From a virus (lineage: Duplodnaviria > Heunggongvirae > Uroviricota > Caudoviricetes): a stretch of 20,934 bases of DNA. Within the stretch, counting starts at the first letter, position 1; each line of letters begins with the position of its first letter. This document shows, piece by piece, positions 1,156 to 14,189 of the stretch. A program made the translations under genes and the position numbers. The notes under the pieces are model-generated. The model was not told the origin of the DNA and did not search any database. It saw only the letters and a list, made by a program, of their open reading frames with translations. Where the stretch lies: IMG/VR virus record IMGVR_UViG_2703718809_000015; one strand, written 5' to 3'.

Positions 1156-1350
1156 TTTCTTAAATCTAACGACAGACGGCTAACATTTAAGTATTGTGAA
1201 ATATTATCAAATGTAATCATCATTGATTTACAAAAGATACATTTTGCCCCGAAAGGATTCCTGTCAGAAACATCAAAAGATGATGTTCTATACTGAGAAC
1301 CATGGCAACACGGGCATCTAAAGTGAATATGGTTTGTAATATTTTCTACC

Positions 1351-1563
1351 TCAAAGTGCCACTACATGAACAGCCGCGGGGCCTTTAGGTCCGTTCTCAA
1401 TACCAAATTCGACTTGCTGATTCTCAGTTAACGTTTTGAAATCGTTGCTCTGAATAGCTGAGAAATGGACAAACACATCTTTGCTACCATCTTTCGGCGT
1501 GATGAAACCAAAACCTTTTTCAGGGTTAAACCATTTCACTAAACCAGTCATTTTGTTAGACAT
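1351..1563 (-). CDS. cspI: Cold-shock protein, CspA family (CspI-like, 70 aa)
   Basis: Translation [26 protein letters not shown]...[13 protein letters not shown] carries the RNP-1-like motif KGFGFI and VFVHF. Tandem ATGs at 1561-1566 with AAGG upstream. Long AT-rich 5' region at 1567-1930, typical of csp genes. Confidence 0.85.
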
Positions 1564-1931
1564 CATTATTACCTTTTGAAGAAGTTAGCCCTTGGGCAGA
1601 ATGGTCCGAAAAAAATATCAGAGAGAAAAACCAACAAGGAAATCTCAAGAGGTACAAATAATAAAATTATAACAATGACTGCTTCAGATAATTTTGTAAC
1701 AAACCAGAACACCATTAACGCATGATTAACCAACCATAGCAAGGATTACTTTTGTAAAGAAAAACACACGAATGAAACAATAGCTTTATTTATTAATAAA
1801 ACGTGTCATTCTGTCTAATGACCTTTTATCTTACCCTTAAGATTTCAAGGATTTTGACTCATGGAAGAGTCCTTTTTATTTAAATTTCACATTCAGCACT
1901 AAAAATAATCCGATTTAATGTTAATCTACAT

Positions 1932-4338: not shown

Positions 4339-4613
4339 GTGGTACTTTTTGTGGGAGTCATCCACTTACGCACTTTGTTTTGCTATGCCAGCAGTTAGCT
4401 TCTGCTGTAAAACTATTCATGCAGCAAACCTGCACTTCACCACAATGGTTAGCATACTTTTCCTGATTAAGTTATTGCCAAATATGCTGGCCATTGTTTC
4501 ATGTATTGGACCTCCTTACTATTTATTAAAGAGATCCAATATTCACCACTCTGTCTGTATCTCCACTCAGGCATCAGCCTTCTTCGTTATCGTATACAGA
4601 CAAACTATGAATT

Positions 4614-4829
4614 TTAATCAGTAATTATGACATTTGCTGCTGCAGGACCTTTAGCACCACTCTCTACAGAGAAGGTAACCTTTTGACCTTCAAATAAGGT
4701 TCGATAATTATCATTCTGAATCGCAGAAAAATGCACAAACACATCTTTACTACCATCAACAGGAGAAATAAAGCCAAAACCTTTATCAGCGTTAAACCAT
4801 TTTACTAAACCAGTCATTTTATTTGACAT
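4614..4829 (-). CDS. cspB: Cold-shock protein, CspA family (CspB-like, 71 aa)
   Basis: Translation [71 protein letters not shown]; divergent from the cspF/H-like gene, as cspB-cspF are in Qin. Confidence 0.85.
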
Positions 4830-5129
4830 TCTACATTCCTTAACTTGAGCCTTTCGGCATAAATGGCTTGTATAACAGAAACGACTTCGTACTTAATTGG
4901 AGAGACTCAAAGAAGGAATAAGTGAATAACACCTGAAATGAGAACTGCTTTAGTAAACTACTTCGTATATCGTCTGTTCTTCAAACCGACGCAATCATTA
5001 ACGCATAGTTGAACATATGAAGCAATGTTTATTTTAGACATCCAGCCATCTTCAACCCCATCAAAAAACTATAGCTTTCTTCAGGAACGTGTGTATAGTG
5101 CGCCAAGTTATCAGTATTAAGGAATTTTT

Positions 5130-8505: not shown

Positions 8506-8950
8506 TTACCGAGTTGCTAATTTGCAACTCGCTTTTTCGTACTTACTGATAGTGATCTCGACCTTCCCCTCCGGGATAACCGGTCCCCACTCCACCAGCA
8601 TTCTTTTCACCTGACTGTCGTCTTCCCACACACCCGCGTGGGTCAGGACGTCAAACAGCGCCTTGTTATAGTTGTCCAAGATCGCGGATCCGGTTATCCG
8701 GAGGAAACAACACGATCTCCACTGAAGCAGGTGCCGACGTTGGTTTTGGCAGACGACGTAACTGCTCAACTATTGCTGCGCACGCCGCGCTCTGGAATTT
8801 GCGCCCCGCCGCGCTCTGGAATTTGCGCCCCGCCGCGCTCTGGAATTTGCGCCCCGCCGCGCTTATCAGGCTCTTACCTGCAAACGCCCCTTTGTTGGGG
8901 TGTCGCCAGTACGTGTTCACGCTGGGCGGAAAAGGCAGGATCAGCTTCAT
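8506..8950 (-). pseudogene. rusA: rusA-like Holliday-junction resolvase, frameshifted, with an in-frame triplicated 24-bp repeat
   Basis: N-terminal part MKLILPFPPSVNTYWRH...PPDNRIRDL (ORF 8666-8950) and C-terminal part LDNYNKALFDVLTHAGVWEDDSQV... (ORF 8506-8769) are in different frames. A GG at about 8676-8677 where a single G would restore RIRDLDNYNK (the catalytic acidic motif region) is the apparent +1 insertion. Confidence 0.75.
8784..8864. repeat. Perfect tandem repeat, 24 bp x 3 plus a partial fourth copy, inside rusA
   Basis: GCCGCGCTCTGGAATTTGCGCCCC at 8784-8807, 8808-8831 and 8832-8855, then GCCGCGCT; encodes SAAGRKFQ three times on the minus strand. Confidence 0.9.
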
Positions 8951-9923: not shown

Positions 9924-10411
9924 TAAGCCCCCACGTAATTCCCTGACAGATACCACTCTTCACCCGATGCAGCGCGCTTGCTGCTTTTCCGTAAGCACCG
10001 CTCACGATGCGCCAGAAAATTGTTTCGTTCTGGCTGGGAGTGGCTTTCACGGAATGCCGCCATCCACACCGTTGCAGCTCGACGGAATAAGCCCCTGGAC
10101 TCCAGTTCTTCAGCCTGGCGGGTCAGGCACAAAATCACCCGGGGGTCGTTAGTGCCGACATAGAAATTGCGCACAGGTCTGGTTTCACGAACAGATTGTG
10201 GTTCCGGCTCCTGCGCTCTCTCAGTCAGGCGCGGGAAATGTCTGCGTGTATCTCCTTCACAACGGTGAGCCACACGCCCACTCTGACGTAACTTGCTTGC
10301 TGACTGCAGAACGCGCTGCCGTGAGTAACCAGCAAAAGCATCCGCAATGTCTCCGGAAGTACACCCCGGATGGGCTTCAATGAATTTCTGAACTTCATTC
10401 AAAAGACTCAT
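9923..10411 (-). CDS. Putative regulator with N-terminal winged-HTH-like region and C-terminal PerC-like motif (about 162 aa)
   Basis: C-terminal AEELESRGLFRRAATVWMAAF resembles the PerC-family signature as I recall it; N-terminal region is HTH-like. AGGGGG upstream of the ATG at 10409-10411. Confidence 0.5.
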   Translation of the reverse strand: MSLLNEVQKFIEAHPGCTSGDIADAFAGYSRQRVLQSASKLRQSGRVAHRCEGDTRRHFPRLTERAQEPEPQSVRETRPVRNFYVGTNDPRVILCLTRQAEELESRGLFRRAATVWMAAFRESHSQPERNNFLAHRERCLRKSSKRAASGEEWYLSGNYVGA

Positions 10412-10413
10412 AA

Positions 10414-11232
10414 TCACCCCCTGAATCCTGCCGGGATCTGGCTGTAGTCCACGTTGTCGTAACTGGCTTTGAAGTACGGGTCCTCGCGTCTGGCTGCAGA
10501 TACTGCAGGAACTTCCCAGGATTCTTCGAAATGACGATCCGGACCAAAGAACGTGACAGCCTGTTTCACAAATTGTGTGCCGCTGTTACCCATCGCAGAT
10601 ACCCAGCCCGCGTAGCGTTTCACACCTTCCAGCATGGTTTCGGGGTTTACCCCCTCATTCAAACGGGCTTTCCAGGCTTTGAAGGCTGCAGATTTTGAAT
10701 TGCCACCAGCACGTTTGGGATAGGCCAGCCATGCCTGCTCAAACTCCGGAGAGTATTCCGGTCGGTTTGAACGAACTCGCACAGACTCATCAGCAGATTC
10801 ACCAACAGCTATTGGTTCATTGACTGGTTCTTTGACTGGTTCAAAAGAGTGACTGGTTCTGGGTGAATCTCCTGCACTACCCCCTGGTGCAACTCCTGCA
10901 CTACCTGGTGAATTTGCTGCACCAGATAGTGAATTATTTGCACTACCCCCTAGTGAATCTCCTGCATCATCAAGATGAAGAAGATAGATATTACTTGAGT
11001 TACCTTTTTCACCTTTCCGGGTGACTTTTTTTACCAGCCCGGACTCACAGAGGGCCGCAATATGATTCATCACAGAACGTTTGCTAATCTCGCACTGATC
11101 AGCGATATGCTGATAGCTGGGCCAGCACTCACCCTGATCGCTGGCATTATCAGCCAGCTTAATCAGAACCAGTTTTCGCAATGGATTTCCCACTCGAATT
11201 TTCATCGCTTTAACCATCAGCTCCATACTCAT
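10414..11232 (-). CDS. Replication initiator O-like protein (N-terminal HTH, repeat-encoded linker, C-terminal domain), 272 aa
   Basis: N-terminal HTH (QHIADQCEISKRSVMNHIAALCESGLVKK); the central low-complexity linker is encoded by direct DNA repeats; position after the cro / CII-like genes; ATGA overlap with the upstream gene. Confidence 0.6.
   Translation of the reverse strand: MSMELMVKAMKIRVGNPLRKLVLIKLADNASDQGECWPSYQHIADQCEISKRSVMNHIAALCESGLVKKVTRKGEKGNSSNIYLLHLDDAGDSLGGSANNSLSGAANSPGSAGVAPGGSAGDSPRTSHSFEPVKEPVNEPIAVGESADESVRVRSNRPEYSPEFEQAWLAYPKRAGGNSKSAAFKAWKARLNEGVNPETMLEGVKRYAGWVSAMGNSGTQFVKQAVTFFGPDRHFEESWEVPAVSAARREDPYFKASYDNVDYSQIPAGFRG
10812..10975. repeat. Iteron-like direct repeats inside the O-like gene (candidate replication origin)
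   Basis: TGACTGGTTC at 10821-10830, 10833-10842 and 10850-10859; then about five imperfect 21-26-bp repeats of GTGAAT-yt-CTGCAC-...-GTG at 10863-10975; an AT-rich stretch follows at about 10978-11015. Confidence 0.5.
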
Positions 11233-11453
11233 GCAGCACCTCCGAGATGCTTCATGTTTTTTCCGGAGCGAAAGGCTATAAGCGGCATACTGACGCGGTA
11301 ACTACGGCCCAGCGGTTCACAAATCACCTTCTGACATTCACGGTCAACCAGGCTAACACGTAGAACATGCCCTGCAGGTGTGGTGTACCACTGACCCGGA
11401 CGAGGACAACGGAAAGTCTGATTGGTAAACCGTTTGAAAATATTCCGGATCAT
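11229..11453 (-). CDS. Hypothetical protein (74 aa), translationally coupled between the Rha-domain ORF and the O-like gene
   Basis: ATGA overlaps at both ends (11450-11453 and 11229-11232). No family recognised. Confidence 0.45.
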   Translation of the reverse strand: MIRNIFKRFTNQTFRCPRPGQWYTTPAGHVLRVSLVDRECQKVICEPLGRSYRVSMPLIAFRSGKNMKHLGGAA

Positions 11454-12598
11454 TTGCGCCCCCTTACCTCTGAAGGGTTCAGCGACAAATTTATGAGGCA
11501 GGCCAGTGCCGAAGCATCATTAATATAGTCATACAAGCTAACAGCCAGCGGAGATTCGGCTTTTGCCAACATAGGATAAAGCTGCTGCAGCCAGACCTGA
11601 TGAATTGATGAAATGTAGGAATAGAGAATGCTGGCGTTATGTGCAACGTCGCTCGGTACAGAGGGTTTTGAAAGCTGTTTCTCCATCTGGTTAAAGGCAT
11701 TGATATATGCCTCTTTGAACTGGGCAGCACGTTTACCCGTGAAACCCATAGCAAGAAACGCAAAGCCGTCGCGGGTTATTTGATAGCAAGGTAGTTTGCG
11801 GCCTGATGCGTCGATGTACTCACTGAGCTGGAAATTCAGCTCAGTAAATTCGGCAGAGCATTCAAGAGACGCAATTTTTTGAATGACATTTTTGTGTTGT
11901 TTGCCGAAATAACTAGCAACAGCCAGAGAAGAAGTAACAACTTTGTCTGCAATAATGCAAAGTTCAGGTTGTACTAAGGCAGGGATCGTAGCCATGATGG
12001 CAGCCTCCGTATGCAATGGATAACTTCCACCACCGGAAACGCCAATTTCGCTGGTGGTGAACTGAGCAGGGTTGGCGTAACCGGCGCATACGGAAACCGG
12101 CGCACCTTTCGGTGCCCCCACCCAGCCCACCATAATTTGGGTATAGCTGAGTTGTAGCAACAAAAAAGACGCTAACGCGCCAATTGTCGCCGTATGCAAT
12201 TCCAGGACGCCAATCCCGGCACCCGCTTTATAAGGTGCCTGAACAGTGTAACGTCCCGGAATGGCAGAATCAATGTGCTGGTGGTCCTTCACACTCAACA
12301 AAATCACGCCTGAATTTCCACAAAGGACTAAAGCACTCATGCGGGTAGTCTTTGCGAAGATAGATAACGCGCTGTGTTTCTGGCTCCCAACGAATAACAT
12401 GAACATAAAGTCCTCTTCCGTCACGAAACCAGCGGTTAAGTTCCTGCACAACTCGCCCCCCACAGTCAGGTAAAGTTCTCTGTGGTTACTTACAGCCAGG
12501 TGATTTGGTAATCTGCATTCATGCCGTAACAACAGGTGTTCAGCCACGCGGACCACCAGCTGTTGCGACCAACGGTTATTTGCCGTTAAACTGTTCAT
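11450..12598 (-). CDS. Rha-domain phage regulatory protein; 382-aa ORF with an unrecognised about-200-aa N-terminal extension (alternative internal start at 11995 gives about 181 aa)
   Basis: C-terminal half LAVASYFGKQHKNVIQKI...GRKLPCYQITRDGFAFLAMGFTGKRAAQFKEAYINAFNQMEKQL matches the Rha signature. The ATG at 12596-12598 overlaps the stop of the upstream gene (ATGA); a second ATG at 11993-11995 has GGAGG 8 nt upstream. Confidence 0.6.
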   Translation of the reverse strand: MNSLTANNRWSQQLVVRVAEHLLLRHECRLPNHLAVSNHRELYLTVGGELCRNLTAGFVTEEDFMFMLFVGSQKHSALSIFAKTTRMSALVLCGNSGVILLSVKDHQHIDSAIPGRYTVQAPYKAGAGIGVLELHTATIGALASFLLLQLSYTQIMVGWVGAPKGAPVSVCAGYANPAQFTTSEIGVSGGGSYPLHTEAAIMATIPALVQPELCIIADKVVTSSLAVASYFGKQHKNVIQKIASLECSAEFTELNFQLSEYIDASGRKLPCYQITRDGFAFLAMGFTGKRAAQFKEAYINAFNQMEKQLSKPSVPSDVAHNASILYSYISSIHQVWLQQLYPMLAKAESPLAVSLYDYINDASALACLINLSLNPSEVRGRK

Positions 12599-13496: not shown

Positions 13497-14189
13497 ATGA
13501 ACATAGGAAACCGAGTCAGACAACTTCGCCAAGCGAAGAACATGAAAATCGCCGATCTCGCTGAAGCAATAGGAGTGGATGCGGCGAATATCTCGCGCCT
13601 GGAAACAGGTAAGCAGAAACAATTCACTGAACAAGCCCTGAGTAATATTGCCAGGAGCTTAGGTGTTGATATTGCTGATCTCTTTACCTCAGACGTCAAA
13701 AGTAATACTGTATATAAAAACAGTGTTAGTGAGGATGTTGCGCAGGTGAAGGATGTATTCCGTATTGAAATGCTGGATGTCAGTGCCAGTGCGGGAAATG
13801 GCCTTATCCAGGGCGGTGATGTCATTGATGTGATTCATGCCATTGAATACAGAACTGATAATGCTGTATCGATGTTTGGCGGACGACCAGCCAATCACAT
13901 TAAAGTTATCAACGTTCGTGGGGACAGTATGTGTCCAACCATTGAGCCAGGAGATCTCATCTTCGTTGATGTCAGTATCAATCAGTTTGATGGAGATGGT
14001 ATCTATGTATTTGGTTTTGATGATAAAATTTACGTTAAACGACTGCAAATGATACCCGACAAACTGCTGGTAATTTCGGATAATCAGATTTACCGTGAAT
14101 GGGGAATTACCAGCGAAAATGAACACCGGTTTATGGTCTTTGGAAAGGTCTTAATCAGCCAGTCACAAACTCTTAAGCGACACAATTAA
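13497..14189 (+). CDS. cI: CI-like repressor (HTH XRE domain plus S24 LexA-like autopeptidase domain), 230 aa
   Basis: N-terminal HTH (MKIADLAEAIGVDAANISRLETGKQ); C-terminal GDSM serine motif and VKRL lysine; Ala-Gly in the linker (SASAGNG). Confidence 0.85.
   Translation: MNIGNRVRQLRQAKNMKIADLAEAIGVDAANISRLETGKQKQFTEQALSNIARSLGVDIADLFTSDVKSNTVYKNSVSEDVAQVKDVFRIEMLDVSASAGNGLIQGGDVIDVIHAIEYRTDNAVSMFGGRPANHIKVINVRGDSMCPTIEPGDLIFVDVSINQFDGDGIYVFGFDDKIYVKRLQMIPDKLLVISDNQIYREWGITSENEHRFMVFGKVLISQSQTLKRHN

What the first reader, a model, noticed from the sequence alone, without database searches (positions are those of the whole stretch)
10800..11015. Candidate replication origin embedded in the O-like gene
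Three exact TGACTGGTTC 10-mers, then about five imperfect direct repeats of 21-26 bp, then an AT-rich stretch, all lying in the part of the O-like gene that encodes a low-complexity linker between the N-terminal HTH domain and the C-terminal domain. This mirrors the lambda arrangement, where ori iterons sit inside the O gene and are bound by the O N-terminal domain.
Basis: partly seen in the sequence, partly recalled or inferred. Interest (0 to 1): 0.45.

Follow-up and report, generated by a model that had tools for sequence, protein, structure and literature searches.

The report
Prophage replication origin inside initiator gene
The repeats are real and are almost certainly the replication origin of an SfV/ST64B-type prophage, lying inside the gene for its own initiator protein as in phage lambda; this is an expected arrangement, but a second DNA box here is conserved across many bacterial genera and its reader is unknown.

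Summary
The gene (10414-11232, minus strand, 272 aa) encodes an HTH_36 winged-helix replication initiator of the SfV orf39 / ST64B sb42 / Stx-phage "Eru6" type. It is not a lambda O homologue, and no helicase or loader gene follows it.

In gene order the region contains:
- a modestly AT-rich stretch;
- five 15-bp dyad sites (GTGMA-N5-TKCAC) spaced 24/21/21/24 bp;
- exactly 4 nt later, a box of GAACCAGTCA repeats.

Comparative evidence for an origin is strong. In 80 prophage loci found through the protein's N-terminus alone:
- 65 carry 3-6 such dyad sites at 21-24 bp spacing, against 0 of 394 control segments;
- 42 of those 65 have the sites in different reading frames;
- the half-site sequence changes together with the recognition helix;
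- 64 of 65 keep the 4-nt register to the box.

The box is conserved at nucleotide level from E. coli to Pseudomonas, Shewanella and Vibrio. Codon identity is 88% in the box against 40% in the HTH domain. In some lineages the box is read in another frame. I read it as the unwinding or helicase-loading element, but this is not shown.

The verdict is an origin of a known kind in an uncharacterised initiator family. No origin activity has been tested.

The parts
10414..11232 (-). Replication initiator gene, 272 aa. It is of the SfV orf39 / ST64B sb42 / Stx-phage Eru6 HTH-protein type.
   Evidence: Pfam HTH_36, E 1.8e-11, aa 17-67. PHROG 270 'replication initiation protein', E 1e-88. It is 98% identical to SfV orf39 and to the genes of phage cdtI, mEp460 and Stx2a_WGPS2. 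It is not Phage_rep_O.
10969..11232 (-). Coding region of the N-terminal winged-helix DNA-binding domain (aa 1-88). The recognition-helix region is ISKRSVMNHIAAL.
   Evidence: The helix sequence co-varies with the iteron half-site across homologues.
10968..11015 (.). Modestly AT-rich stretch (GC about 0.37). It is candidate unwinding region A and encodes the conserved wing KGEKGNSSNIYLLHLDD.
   Evidence: 93rd-94th percentile of instability in the window. A GC dip of 0.39-0.40 lies at the equivalent place in homologues.
10953..10967 (.). Iteron 1, first in gene order. The + strand reads GTGAATCTCCTGCAt. It carries one half-site change compared with most close relatives.
   Evidence: Most close relatives (21 of the 25 unique window-type segments) have G here, giving GATGGT instead of GATGAT.
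10929..10943 (.). Iteron 2, GTGAATTATTTGCAC.
10908..10922 (.). Iteron 3, GTGAATTTGCTGCAC.
10887..10901 (.). Iteron 4, GTGCAACTCCTGCAC. Its half-sites form a perfect dyad.
   Evidence: it matches on both strands.
10863..10877 (.). Iteron 5, GTGAATCTCCTGCAC. It is the last in gene order and ends 4 nt before AACCAGT.
   Evidence: The same 4-nt register is found in 64 of 65 unbiased loci.
10826..10860 (-). Family-wide conserved 35-nt box. The gene strand reads AGAACCAGTCACTCTTTTGAACCAGTCAAAGAACC. It is candidate unwinding or helicase-loading region B.
   Evidence: Codon identity at conserved residues is 88% here against 40% in the HTH domain, p 2e-15. 72 of 80 unbiased loci have at most 8 of 35 mismatches, while the best match elsewhere in each locus has 13-18. 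It forms a 40% GC dip.
10809..10859 (-). Array of GAACCAGTCA direct repeats. Exact copies lie at 10850-10859, 10833-10842 and 10821-10830, and a degenerate copy at 10809-10818. Spacings are 17, 12 and 12 bp.
   Evidence: PhiR63_1 has one more 12-mer. Pseudomonas prophages have 3-5 such units.
10791..10804 (.). Inverted partial copy of the iteron (CAGCAGATTCACCA). It is not conserved in ST64B and probably has no significance.
10417..10809 (-). Coding region of the C-terminal helical domain (aa 142-272). This is an exchangeable module that presumably recruits the host helicase or primosome.

Best explanation
This is the replication origin of a lambdoid-style prophage, embedded in the gene of its own initiator.

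Inferred mechanism:
1. After derepression the rightward-type early operon (cro, cII-like, Rha, 74-aa ORF, initiator) is transcribed.
2. Dimers of the initiator's N-terminal winged-helix domain bind the five 15-bp dyad iterons (gene strand GTGCA-N5-TTCAC). These are spaced 21-24 bp apart, about two helical turns, so they lie on one face of the DNA. Binding builds an O-some-like nucleoprotein complex.
3. The complex destabilises an adjacent low-GC segment. The best candidate is the conserved GAACCAGTCA 12-mer array, which starts exactly 4 nt after the last iteron. The second candidate is the AT-rich wing-coding stretch on the other side.
4. The exchangeable C-terminal domain brings in the host replicative helicase, because this module encodes neither a helicase nor a loader.

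What is shown here: the sites, their DNA-level conservation, their phasing, the co-variation with the recognition helix and the fixed register to the box. What is inferred: binding, unwinding and helicase recruitment.
For: Anatomy of the region.

Identity of the gene and its operon context (cI, cro, cII-like, Rha, initiator, PerC-like, Dam).

Homologues found by protein similarity alone: all 13 phage genes that share the N-terminal domain have their own 21-24 bp repeats at the same place.

Unbiased genome set (80 loci, found with the peptide KLVLIKLADN in a collection holding one genome per species):
- 65 have 3-6 dyad 15-mers of one family, against 0 of 394 control segments;
- spacings are 21-24 bp;
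- 42 of 65 have spacings that are not multiples of 3, so the repeats sit in different reading frames;
- 64 of 65 end 4 nt before AACCAGT.

Recognition helix and half-site change together:
- SK/RRSV(M/I)NHI goes with GTG(C/A)A..T(T/G)CAC;
- SKRSVMRHI and DRRTAMRHI go with GTGAC..GTCAC;
- CSKSAVRNHI goes with TGCCA..TGGCA;
- (G/S)RSTVK(V/S)HI goes with GGGCAG..CTGCCC;
- DRSTVR(R/K)HI goes with TAGGC..GCCTA.

Among close relatives, half-sites are less polymorphic than the linkers between iterons: 7 of 50 positions against 13 of 30, p 0.007.

Copy number varies in frame: cdtI has +66 bp, which is three more iterons, and PhiR63_1 has +12 bp.

The box is conserved at DNA level. The motif is read in another frame in Shewanella, Avibacterium and phage mEp010.

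The N-domain, iterons and box move as one module joined to at least five different C-terminal modules.

The annotated lambda record shows the analogous layout: four dyad iterons spaced 20-24 bp, then an AT-rich tract downstream in O.
Against: - No experiment. I found no report of origin activity, footprinting or marker-frequency data for this family. The papers most likely to comment (the SfV, ST64B and cdtI genome papers) are not in the library.
- Neither flanking low-GC segment is strongly AT-rich. GC is about 0.37-0.42. The AT-rich stretch reaches only the 93rd-94th percentile of instability in the window, and the box only about the 70th.
- There is no DnaA box in or near the gene.
- I found no small natural plasmid that relies on this gene alone. 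Only phage-sized circles turned up.
- The function of the C-terminal domain is unresolved.
- Iteron 1 of this particular prophage carries a half-site change and its rusA gene is broken, so this copy may be decaying.
Confidence: 0.8

Rival explanations
1. The repeats are only the by-product of a low-complexity Gly/Ser/Ala/Pro linker peptide, generated by replication slippage and tolerated in a flexible linker. They have no function as DNA.
For: - The segment does encode a low-complexity linker.
- Copy number varies in frame among close relatives.
- In this window all five iteron spacings are multiples of 3.
Against: - In 42 of 65 related loci the repeats are 22 or 23 bp apart, so they fall in different reading frames. 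VibK250 and mEp010 show the same.
- The encoded peptides differ completely between classes (GDSLGGSA, PPVPPEST, VTESH), while the dyad geometry, the 21-24 bp phasing and the 4-nt register are kept.
- Half-sites are conserved and spacers vary.
- One GAACCAGTCA copy in this window is in another frame.
- Codon identity in the box is 88% against 40% in the HTH domain.
Confidence: 0.03
2. The 15-mers are genuine binding sites of the initiator, but they serve autoregulation, copy control or handcuffing. DNA unwinding and the start of replication occur elsewhere in the phage genome.
For: - Iterons in plasmids also act in copy control and autorepression (established knowledge of iteron plasmids).
- Neither flank is strongly AT-rich.
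- There is no DnaA box.
Against: - No other cluster of the 15-mer exists in the 21-kb window. The isolated 1-mismatch hits at 10246 and 12435 are at chance level.
- The fixed 4-nt register to a conserved low-GC box is what an initiator-plus-unwinding unit would look like.
- In lambda and the P22-like phages the intragenic iterons are the origin.
Confidence: 0.1
3. The conserved GAACCAGTCA box is not part of the origin. It is kept either as a conserved peptide (PRTSHSFEPVKEP, for example a docking motif) or as a shared junction sequence that lets N- and C-terminal modules recombine.
For: - The peptide RTSHSFEPV.EP is also highly conserved.
- The mosaic junction to the different C-terminal modules lies immediately after the box.
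Against: - Synonymous positions are conserved far beyond the rest of the gene: 88% against 40% codon identity, including the rare AGA codon and specific Ser codons.
- Shewanella (PEPVTLEPV), Avibacterium (RTSHSINQSIN) and mEp010 (PNQSYITSK) keep the nucleotide motif in other frames.
- A junction sequence alone would not need a fixed 4-nt distance to the last iteron.
- The two readings do not exclude each other.
Confidence: 0.15

Closest known systems
Phage lambda ori inside gene O (and the lambdoid Stx phages 933W and P27)
   Same: - Dyad-symmetric iterons lie inside the initiator's own reading frame, at the boundary between its DNA-binding N-domain and its C-domain.
- There are 4-6 copies spaced 20-24 bp.
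- A lower-GC segment follows downstream in the direction of transcription.
- The N-domain and the iterons form one specificity module.
   Different: - The initiator is not a Phage_rep_O protein and shows no meaningful BLASTP similarity to lambda O.
- No P gene follows; a PerC-like regulator gene does.
- In place of lambda's strongly A-rich tract there is a 40% GC array of GAACCAGTCA repeats, conserved across iteron classes.
P22 gene 18 and phage L gene 18 origins
   Same: The origin is inferred from type-specific repeats inside the initiator gene of P22-like and lambdoid phages. The phage L genome paper makes exactly this inference (PMC8022706).
   Different: Those phages have different initiator families and different repeat sequences, for example 11-bp TGTCCAACGGA in L. 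Each has a dedicated helicase gene (gene 12) next to the initiator.
Stx-phage 'Eru6' replication region (Stx2a_WGPS2; PMC8951638)
   Same: This is the same gene. The window gene is 97.9% identical to that of AP012537, with the same Rha/Ash gene upstream.
   Different: That work classifies the region by gene content and states that nothing is known about replication of Eru phages. It does not mention iterons or an origin.
Iteron plasmids with winged-helix Rep proteins (RK2 TrfA, F RepE, pPS10 RepA, R6K pi)
   Same: Winged-helix initiators bind arrays of phased iterons next to an unwinding element that itself contains short direct repeats (13-mers). This rests on established knowledge and was not tested here.
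   Different: Plasmid iterons lie outside the rep gene, and the origins usually carry DnaA boxes. No DnaA box is present here.
Bacillus phage SPP1 G38P replisome organiser and oriL
   Same: The initiator binds repeats located within its own gene. The C-terminal domain here gives weak, non-significant fold hits to a DnaD-like protein and to SPP1 G39P, and a PHROG hit labelled 'DnaD-like helicase loader'.
   Different: No significant sequence or fold similarity was established. SPP1 also encodes its own loader and helicase.

Membership tests
Lambda-type origin (iterons inside the initiator gene) | Several initiator-binding repeats lie inside the initiator's own reading frame, between its two domains. 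| tested here: met
   Five 15-mers at 10863-10967 lie within codons 89-124 of the 272-aa gene.
Lambda-type origin (iterons inside the initiator gene) | The repeats have internal dyad symmetry and are spaced about two helical turns apart. | tested here: met
   The site is GTGMA-N5-TKCAC with spacings of 24, 21, 21 and 24 bp. Across 65 related loci the spacings are 21-24 bp. The lambda record shows 20, 24 and 23 bp.
Lambda-type origin (iterons inside the initiator gene) | Repeat sequence and initiator DNA-binding domain co-vary, forming type-specific pairs. | tested here: met
   At least six helix and half-site pairs are seen in two independent locus sets.
Lambda-type origin (iterons inside the initiator gene) | A strongly AT-rich unwinding region adjoins the iterons. 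| tested here: inconclusive
   Two flanking dips have GC of about 0.37-0.42. They rank at the 93rd-94th and about the 70th percentile of instability. Neither is as extreme as the tract in lambda.
Lambda-type origin (iterons inside the initiator gene) | The fragment supports initiator-dependent replication. | not testable with these tools
   This needs a cloning and replication assay. No natural minimal replicon was found.
Lambda O protein family (Pfam Phage_rep_O, PF04492) | The N-terminal domain matches Phage_rep_O. | tested here: not met
   The window protein matches HTH_36 and, below cut-off, DnaD_N, but not PF04492. Lambda O matches PF04492 at E 6e-36. BLASTP between the two gives only short chance-level segments.
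Lambda O-P replication module | A P-like, DnaC-like or helicase gene lies immediately downstream of the initiator. | tested here: not met
   The next genes are a PerC-like regulator, a Dam methylase and a LexA-like protein. Relatives with other C-terminal modules do have a primase-helicase gene or a P-like gene downstream.
HTH_36 phage replication initiators (PHROG 270; SfV orf39 / ST64B sb42 / Eru6 HTH protein) | The protein has an HTH_36 winged-helix N-domain and full-length similarity to the family. | tested here: met
   HTH_36, E 1.8e-11. PHROG 270, E 1e-88, covering aa 3-271. Nucleotide identity to SfV, cdtI and mEp460 is 98%.
DnaA-dependent origins | DnaA boxes (TTWTNCACA) lie in or next to the origin. 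| tested here: not met
   There are three boxes in the whole window, which is the chance level, and none lies within 3 kb of the gene.

The most novel reading that the evidence does not exclude
The GAACCAGTCA 12-mer array is a sequence-specific unwinding or helicase-loading cassette that does not depend on iteron class. It always sits 4 nt after the last iteron and is kept at nucleotide level in prophages from Escherichia to Pseudomonas, Shewanella, Aeromonas and Vibrio. It would be read, probably as single-stranded DNA, by a conserved surface of the initiator or by a conserved host factor. This would make it a phage counterpart of the oriC and RK2 13-mers, one that also has to encode protein in two frames.
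Probability: 0.35. Interest if true: 0.6.

Novelty: new member of a known kind. Interest (0 to 1): 0.45.

Why it matters
This initiator module is very common. Part of the gene is found in 2718 of 5426 complete E. coli genomes, and 897 of them hold at least 80% of it. It is also the replication unit of several Stx2-converting phages (Eru6 type), of SfV, of ST64B and of the cdtI phage. Replication of Stx phages drives toxin production, and the published classification of these regions says nothing is known about how they replicate.

Fixing the origin to about 200 bp gives three things:
- a concrete fragment and concrete sites to test;
- a natural table of recognition-helix and half-site pairs, useful for working out winged-helix specificity;
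- a conserved non-iteron box that could reveal how such single-gene replication modules open DNA and recruit the host helicase.

As a kind of element it is expected, so the surprise to a specialist is moderate.

Tried and rejected
- DnaA boxes: none near the gene.
- Single-strand hairpins in the box or iteron region on either strand: not better than shuffles, z between -0.06 and -1.8.
- Internal sigma-70 promoters: none. One terminator-like hairpin lies antisense at 11009-11024, which is the chance level.
- Natural minimal replicons: tblastn against plasmids found only phage-sized (about 40 kb) circles or large records, which is no evidence for autonomous replication of the gene alone.
- Literature: the SfV, ST64B and cdtI genome papers are not held. 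Searches for the motif strings, for HTH_36 with iterons, for yfdO and for Min27/24B found nothing on this origin.
- IHF-like reading of AGTCACTCTTTTG: judged by eye only. It has two mismatches to the consensus, and the TTR part is not conserved in relatives, so I dropped it.
- Inverted partial iteron at 10791-10804: not conserved in ST64B, so treated as chance.
- The IMG/VR set found with the exact box is biased for the box. I therefore used it only for iteron diversity. Box conservation was measured on sets found through the protein.

Full report
**What is there**

The finding lies inside a 272-codon gene on the minus strand (10414-11232). Its product has an N-terminal HTH_36 winged-helix domain (Pfam E 1.8e-11). 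It matches PHROG 270 'replication initiation protein' over its full length, E 1e-88.

The neighbourhood is a lambdoid early region:
- a cI-like repressor (13497-14189, + strand);
- on the minus strand, cro-like, cII-like, a Rha/Ash ORF, a 74-aa ORF and the initiator;
- then a PerC-like regulator, a Dam methylase and a LexA-like protein.

No helicase, primase or loader gene follows. The gene is 98% identical to SfV orf39 and to the corresponding genes of phage cdtI, mEp460, Stx2a_WGPS2 and the Stx2c phages. At least part of it is matched in 2718 of 5426 complete E. coli genomes, and 897 hold at least 80% of it. In the published scheme for Stx phages this is the 'Eru6' region. That paper states that nothing is known about replication of Eru phages and mentions no iterons (PMC8951638).

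**Check of the observation**

All three elements exist.
- The three exact TGACTGGTTC copies are at 10821, 10833 and 10850. At up to 1 mismatch the window has 8 hits against 1.0 expected.
- The imperfect repeats (TRF period 24) have a 15-bp core, GTGAA-N5-TGCAC on the + strand, at 10863, 10887, 10908, 10929 and 10953. Six of the window's 8 hits fall at these five sites (one site matches on both strands), against 1.6 expected for the whole window.
- The AT-rich stretch at 10968-11015 has GC 0.37 and ranks at the 93rd-94th percentile of duplex instability in the window. It is real but modest.

Because the gene is on the minus strand, the order along the gene is AT-rich stretch, iterons, then 10-mers. 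The AT-rich stretch encodes the conserved wing of the DNA-binding domain, not the linker. One of the three 10-mers is read in a different frame (RTSH) from the other two (EPVK, EPVN).

**The repeats are DNA sites, not a peptide repeat**

On the gene strand each unit is GTGCA-N5-TTCAC, a partial dyad. The half-sites are conserved and the 5-bp spacer is free.

I collected homologues by protein similarity only (tblastn; loci L001-L015). Every phage gene that shares the N-terminal domain has its own 21-24 bp repeats at the same place, but with different sequences and different encoded peptides:
- GGGGCAGGAGCTGCCCC in Min27;
- TGCCA-N5-TGGCA in Klebsiella phage RothC;
- a five-unit proline-rich array in Salmonella phage S137;
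- GTGAC-N5-GTCAC in Vibrio phages and in mEp010, where successive copies are in two reading frames.

I then took a second set that was not selected on any DNA motif. These were 80 loci from one genome per species, found with the peptide KLVLIKLADN. In this set:
- 65 have 3-6 dyad 15-mers of one family, against 0 of 394 control segments of equal length;
- almost all spacings are 21, 22, 23 or 24 bp;
- in 42 of the 65, at least one spacing is not a multiple of three.

Among 25 close variants of the window's own type, half-site positions are less polymorphic than the linkers between iterons: 7 of 50 against 13 of 30, p 0.007. Close relatives also differ by whole units. Phage cdtI has 66 extra bp, which is three more iterons, and PhiR63_1 has one more 12-mer.

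**Co-variation with the protein**

In both the IMG/VR set and the genome set, the recognition-helix segment and the half-site change together:
- ISKRSVMNHI and ISRRSVINHI go with GTG(C/A)A...T(T/G)CAC;
- SKRSVMRHI and DRRTAMRHI go with GTGAC...GTCAC;
- CSKSAVRNHI goes with TGCCA...TGGCA;
- (G/S)RSTVK(V/S)HI goes with GGGCAG...CTGCCC;
- DRSTVR(R/K)HI goes with TAGGC...GCCTA.

This is the pattern expected if the N-terminal domain binds these sites as a dimer. The N-terminal domain with its repeats is found joined to several unrelated C-terminal modules. Conversely, the window's C-terminal domain is found behind an unrelated N-terminus (Stx2_14744, L015). The junction falls at residues 138-142.

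**The conserved box**

Immediately after the last iteron comes AGAACCAGTCACTCTTTTGAACCAGTCAAAGAACC (window 10860-10826). In this phage two further 12-mers follow.
- I compared the window with seven distant homologues (Vibrio, Klebsiella, Salmonella, Morganella and E. coli phages; 63-71% identical over the first 88 residues) at residues that are conserved. The codon is identical in 67 of 76 cases in the box, against 151 of 379 in the HTH domain, p 2e-15.
- In the unbiased genome set, 72 of 80 loci carry the box with at most 8 of 35 mismatches, 280-445 nt from the gene start. The best match elsewhere in each locus has 13-18 mismatches.
- In 64 of 65 loci the last iteron ends exactly 4 nt before AACCAGT, whatever the iteron class.
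- Shewanella prophages (PEPVTLEPV), an Avibacterium prophage (RTSHSINQSIN) and phage mEp010 (PNQSYITSK) keep the nucleotide motif in other reading frames.
- The box is a 45-bp dip to about 40% GC between segments of 52-60% GC, even in Pseudomonas prophages. Those often carry 3-5 tandem GAACCNGTCANN units.
- It forms no significant single-strand hairpin.
- No paper in the library contains the motif.

The box belongs to the N-terminal module. L015, which shares only the C-terminal domain, lacks it.

**Most likely mechanism**

I read the region as the phage origin.
1. Initiator dimers occupy five phased dyad sites on one face of the helix.
2. The complex opens an adjacent low-GC segment.
3. The C-terminal domain recruits the host helicase, since the module has none of its own.

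Shown here: the sites, their DNA-level constraint, their phasing, the helix and half-site co-variation and the fixed register. Inferred: binding, unwinding and helicase recruitment.

For the unwinding site I favour the GAACCAGTCA array at 10809-10860. It lies downstream of the iterons in the direction of transcription, as the AT-rich tract does in lambda. It is in fixed register with the iterons, it is conserved, and it is a local GC minimum. Thermodynamically, however, the stretch at 10968-11015 is the least stable part of this gene, so I leave this point open.

The C-terminal domain could not be identified:
- no Pfam, NCBIfam or PDB sequence hit;
- a helical AF2 model of moderate confidence;

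**Comparison with what is known**

The layout matches lambda ori-in-O, P22 gene 18 and phage L gene 18, where origins are routinely inferred from such repeats (PMC7466680; PMC8022706). It is not a member of the lambda O family:
- Pfam assigns HTH_36, not Phage_rep_O;
- BLASTP against lambda O finds nothing meaningful;
- there is no P gene;
- there are no DnaA boxes.

I therefore file it as a new member of a known kind: an intragenic iteron origin in an initiator family whose origin has not, as far as I could find, been described. The part that lies beyond the known pattern is the class-independent box in fixed register.

**Limits**

- There are no experimental data.
- The IMG/VR set was selected on the exact box, so I used it only for iteron diversity.
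- My automatic iteron detector (5-N5-5 dyads with at most 1 mismatch) misses some classes, so 65 of 80 is a lower bound.
- This particular prophage may be decaying. Iteron 1 carries a half-site change compared with most relatives, and rusA is split.

Noticed in passing
window 8506-8950 (-), repeat at 8783-8863: The rusA resolvase gene is split into two ORFs (8666-8950 and 8506-8769; only the second matches Pfam RusA). It also carries a perfect 24-bp tandem repeat, CGCCGCGCTCTGGAATTTGCGCCC, in 3.4 copies, which is an in-frame expansion. It is probably a pseudogene, which would suggest a decaying prophage.
   Followed up: partly
window 12050-12137 (-) and 12162-12238 (-): Rfam finds a C4 antisense RNA (81 bits) and an isrK Hfq-binding sRNA (61 bits). 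Both lie inside the long ORF 11450-12598 and overlap its Pfam 'Phage_ASH' match (aa 117-212). The 5' part of that ORF may hold RNA genes of a P1/Gifsy-type antirepressor control system, not coding sequence.
   Followed up: no
window 4551-4990 (-) and 1305-1720 (-): There are two full-length matches to the cspA thermoregulator RNA family (157 and 114 bits). This means two cold-shock-protein-type leaders and genes within the prophage late or accessory region.
   Followed up: no
L005 (phage cdtI) 1501-2385; L012 (PhiR63_1) 1501-2331; L028: Near-identical initiator genes differ by whole repeat units. cdtI has 66 extra bp, duplicating three iterons. PhiR63_1 has one extra GAACCAGTCAAA. IMG/VR locus L028 has three tandem copies of GTGCAGGAGTTGCAC. 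The number of iterons is therefore not fixed within one specificity type.
   Followed up: partly
window 10967 (iteron 1): This prophage has A where 21 of the 25 unique close-relative segments compared have G (GATGAT against GATGGT on the gene strand). The change turns the outer half-site of iteron 1 from GTGCA into ATGCA.
   Followed up: partly
L015 (Stx2a phage Stx2_14744) 997-1890: The window's C-terminal domain (67% identity) is fused here to an unrelated N-terminal region. That region has its own short repeats (GGGAAACC-type, and the peptide TENTTEITSENTTE), and helicase and replication genes follow. The junction lies right where the GAACCAGTCA box ends in ST64B.
   Followed up: partly
L198, L199, L201 (Shewanella); L210 (Avibacterium); L195, L206, L208 (Aliivibrio): These loci carry variant boxes. 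In Shewanella the two GAACCAGTCA copies are 14 bp apart instead of 17, which shifts the first copy into the EPV frame. Avibacterium reads the second copy as NQS. Aliivibrio L195 and L208 keep one copy followed by a strongly AT-rich run (AAAAAATATAAAAAAATC). L206 keeps one copy followed directly by GAACC.
   Followed up: partly
window 11009-11024 (+): A terminator-like hairpin followed by a T-run lies antisense to the initiator gene, at the edge of the AT-rich stretch. One such site in the scanned region is what shuffles give.
   Followed up: no
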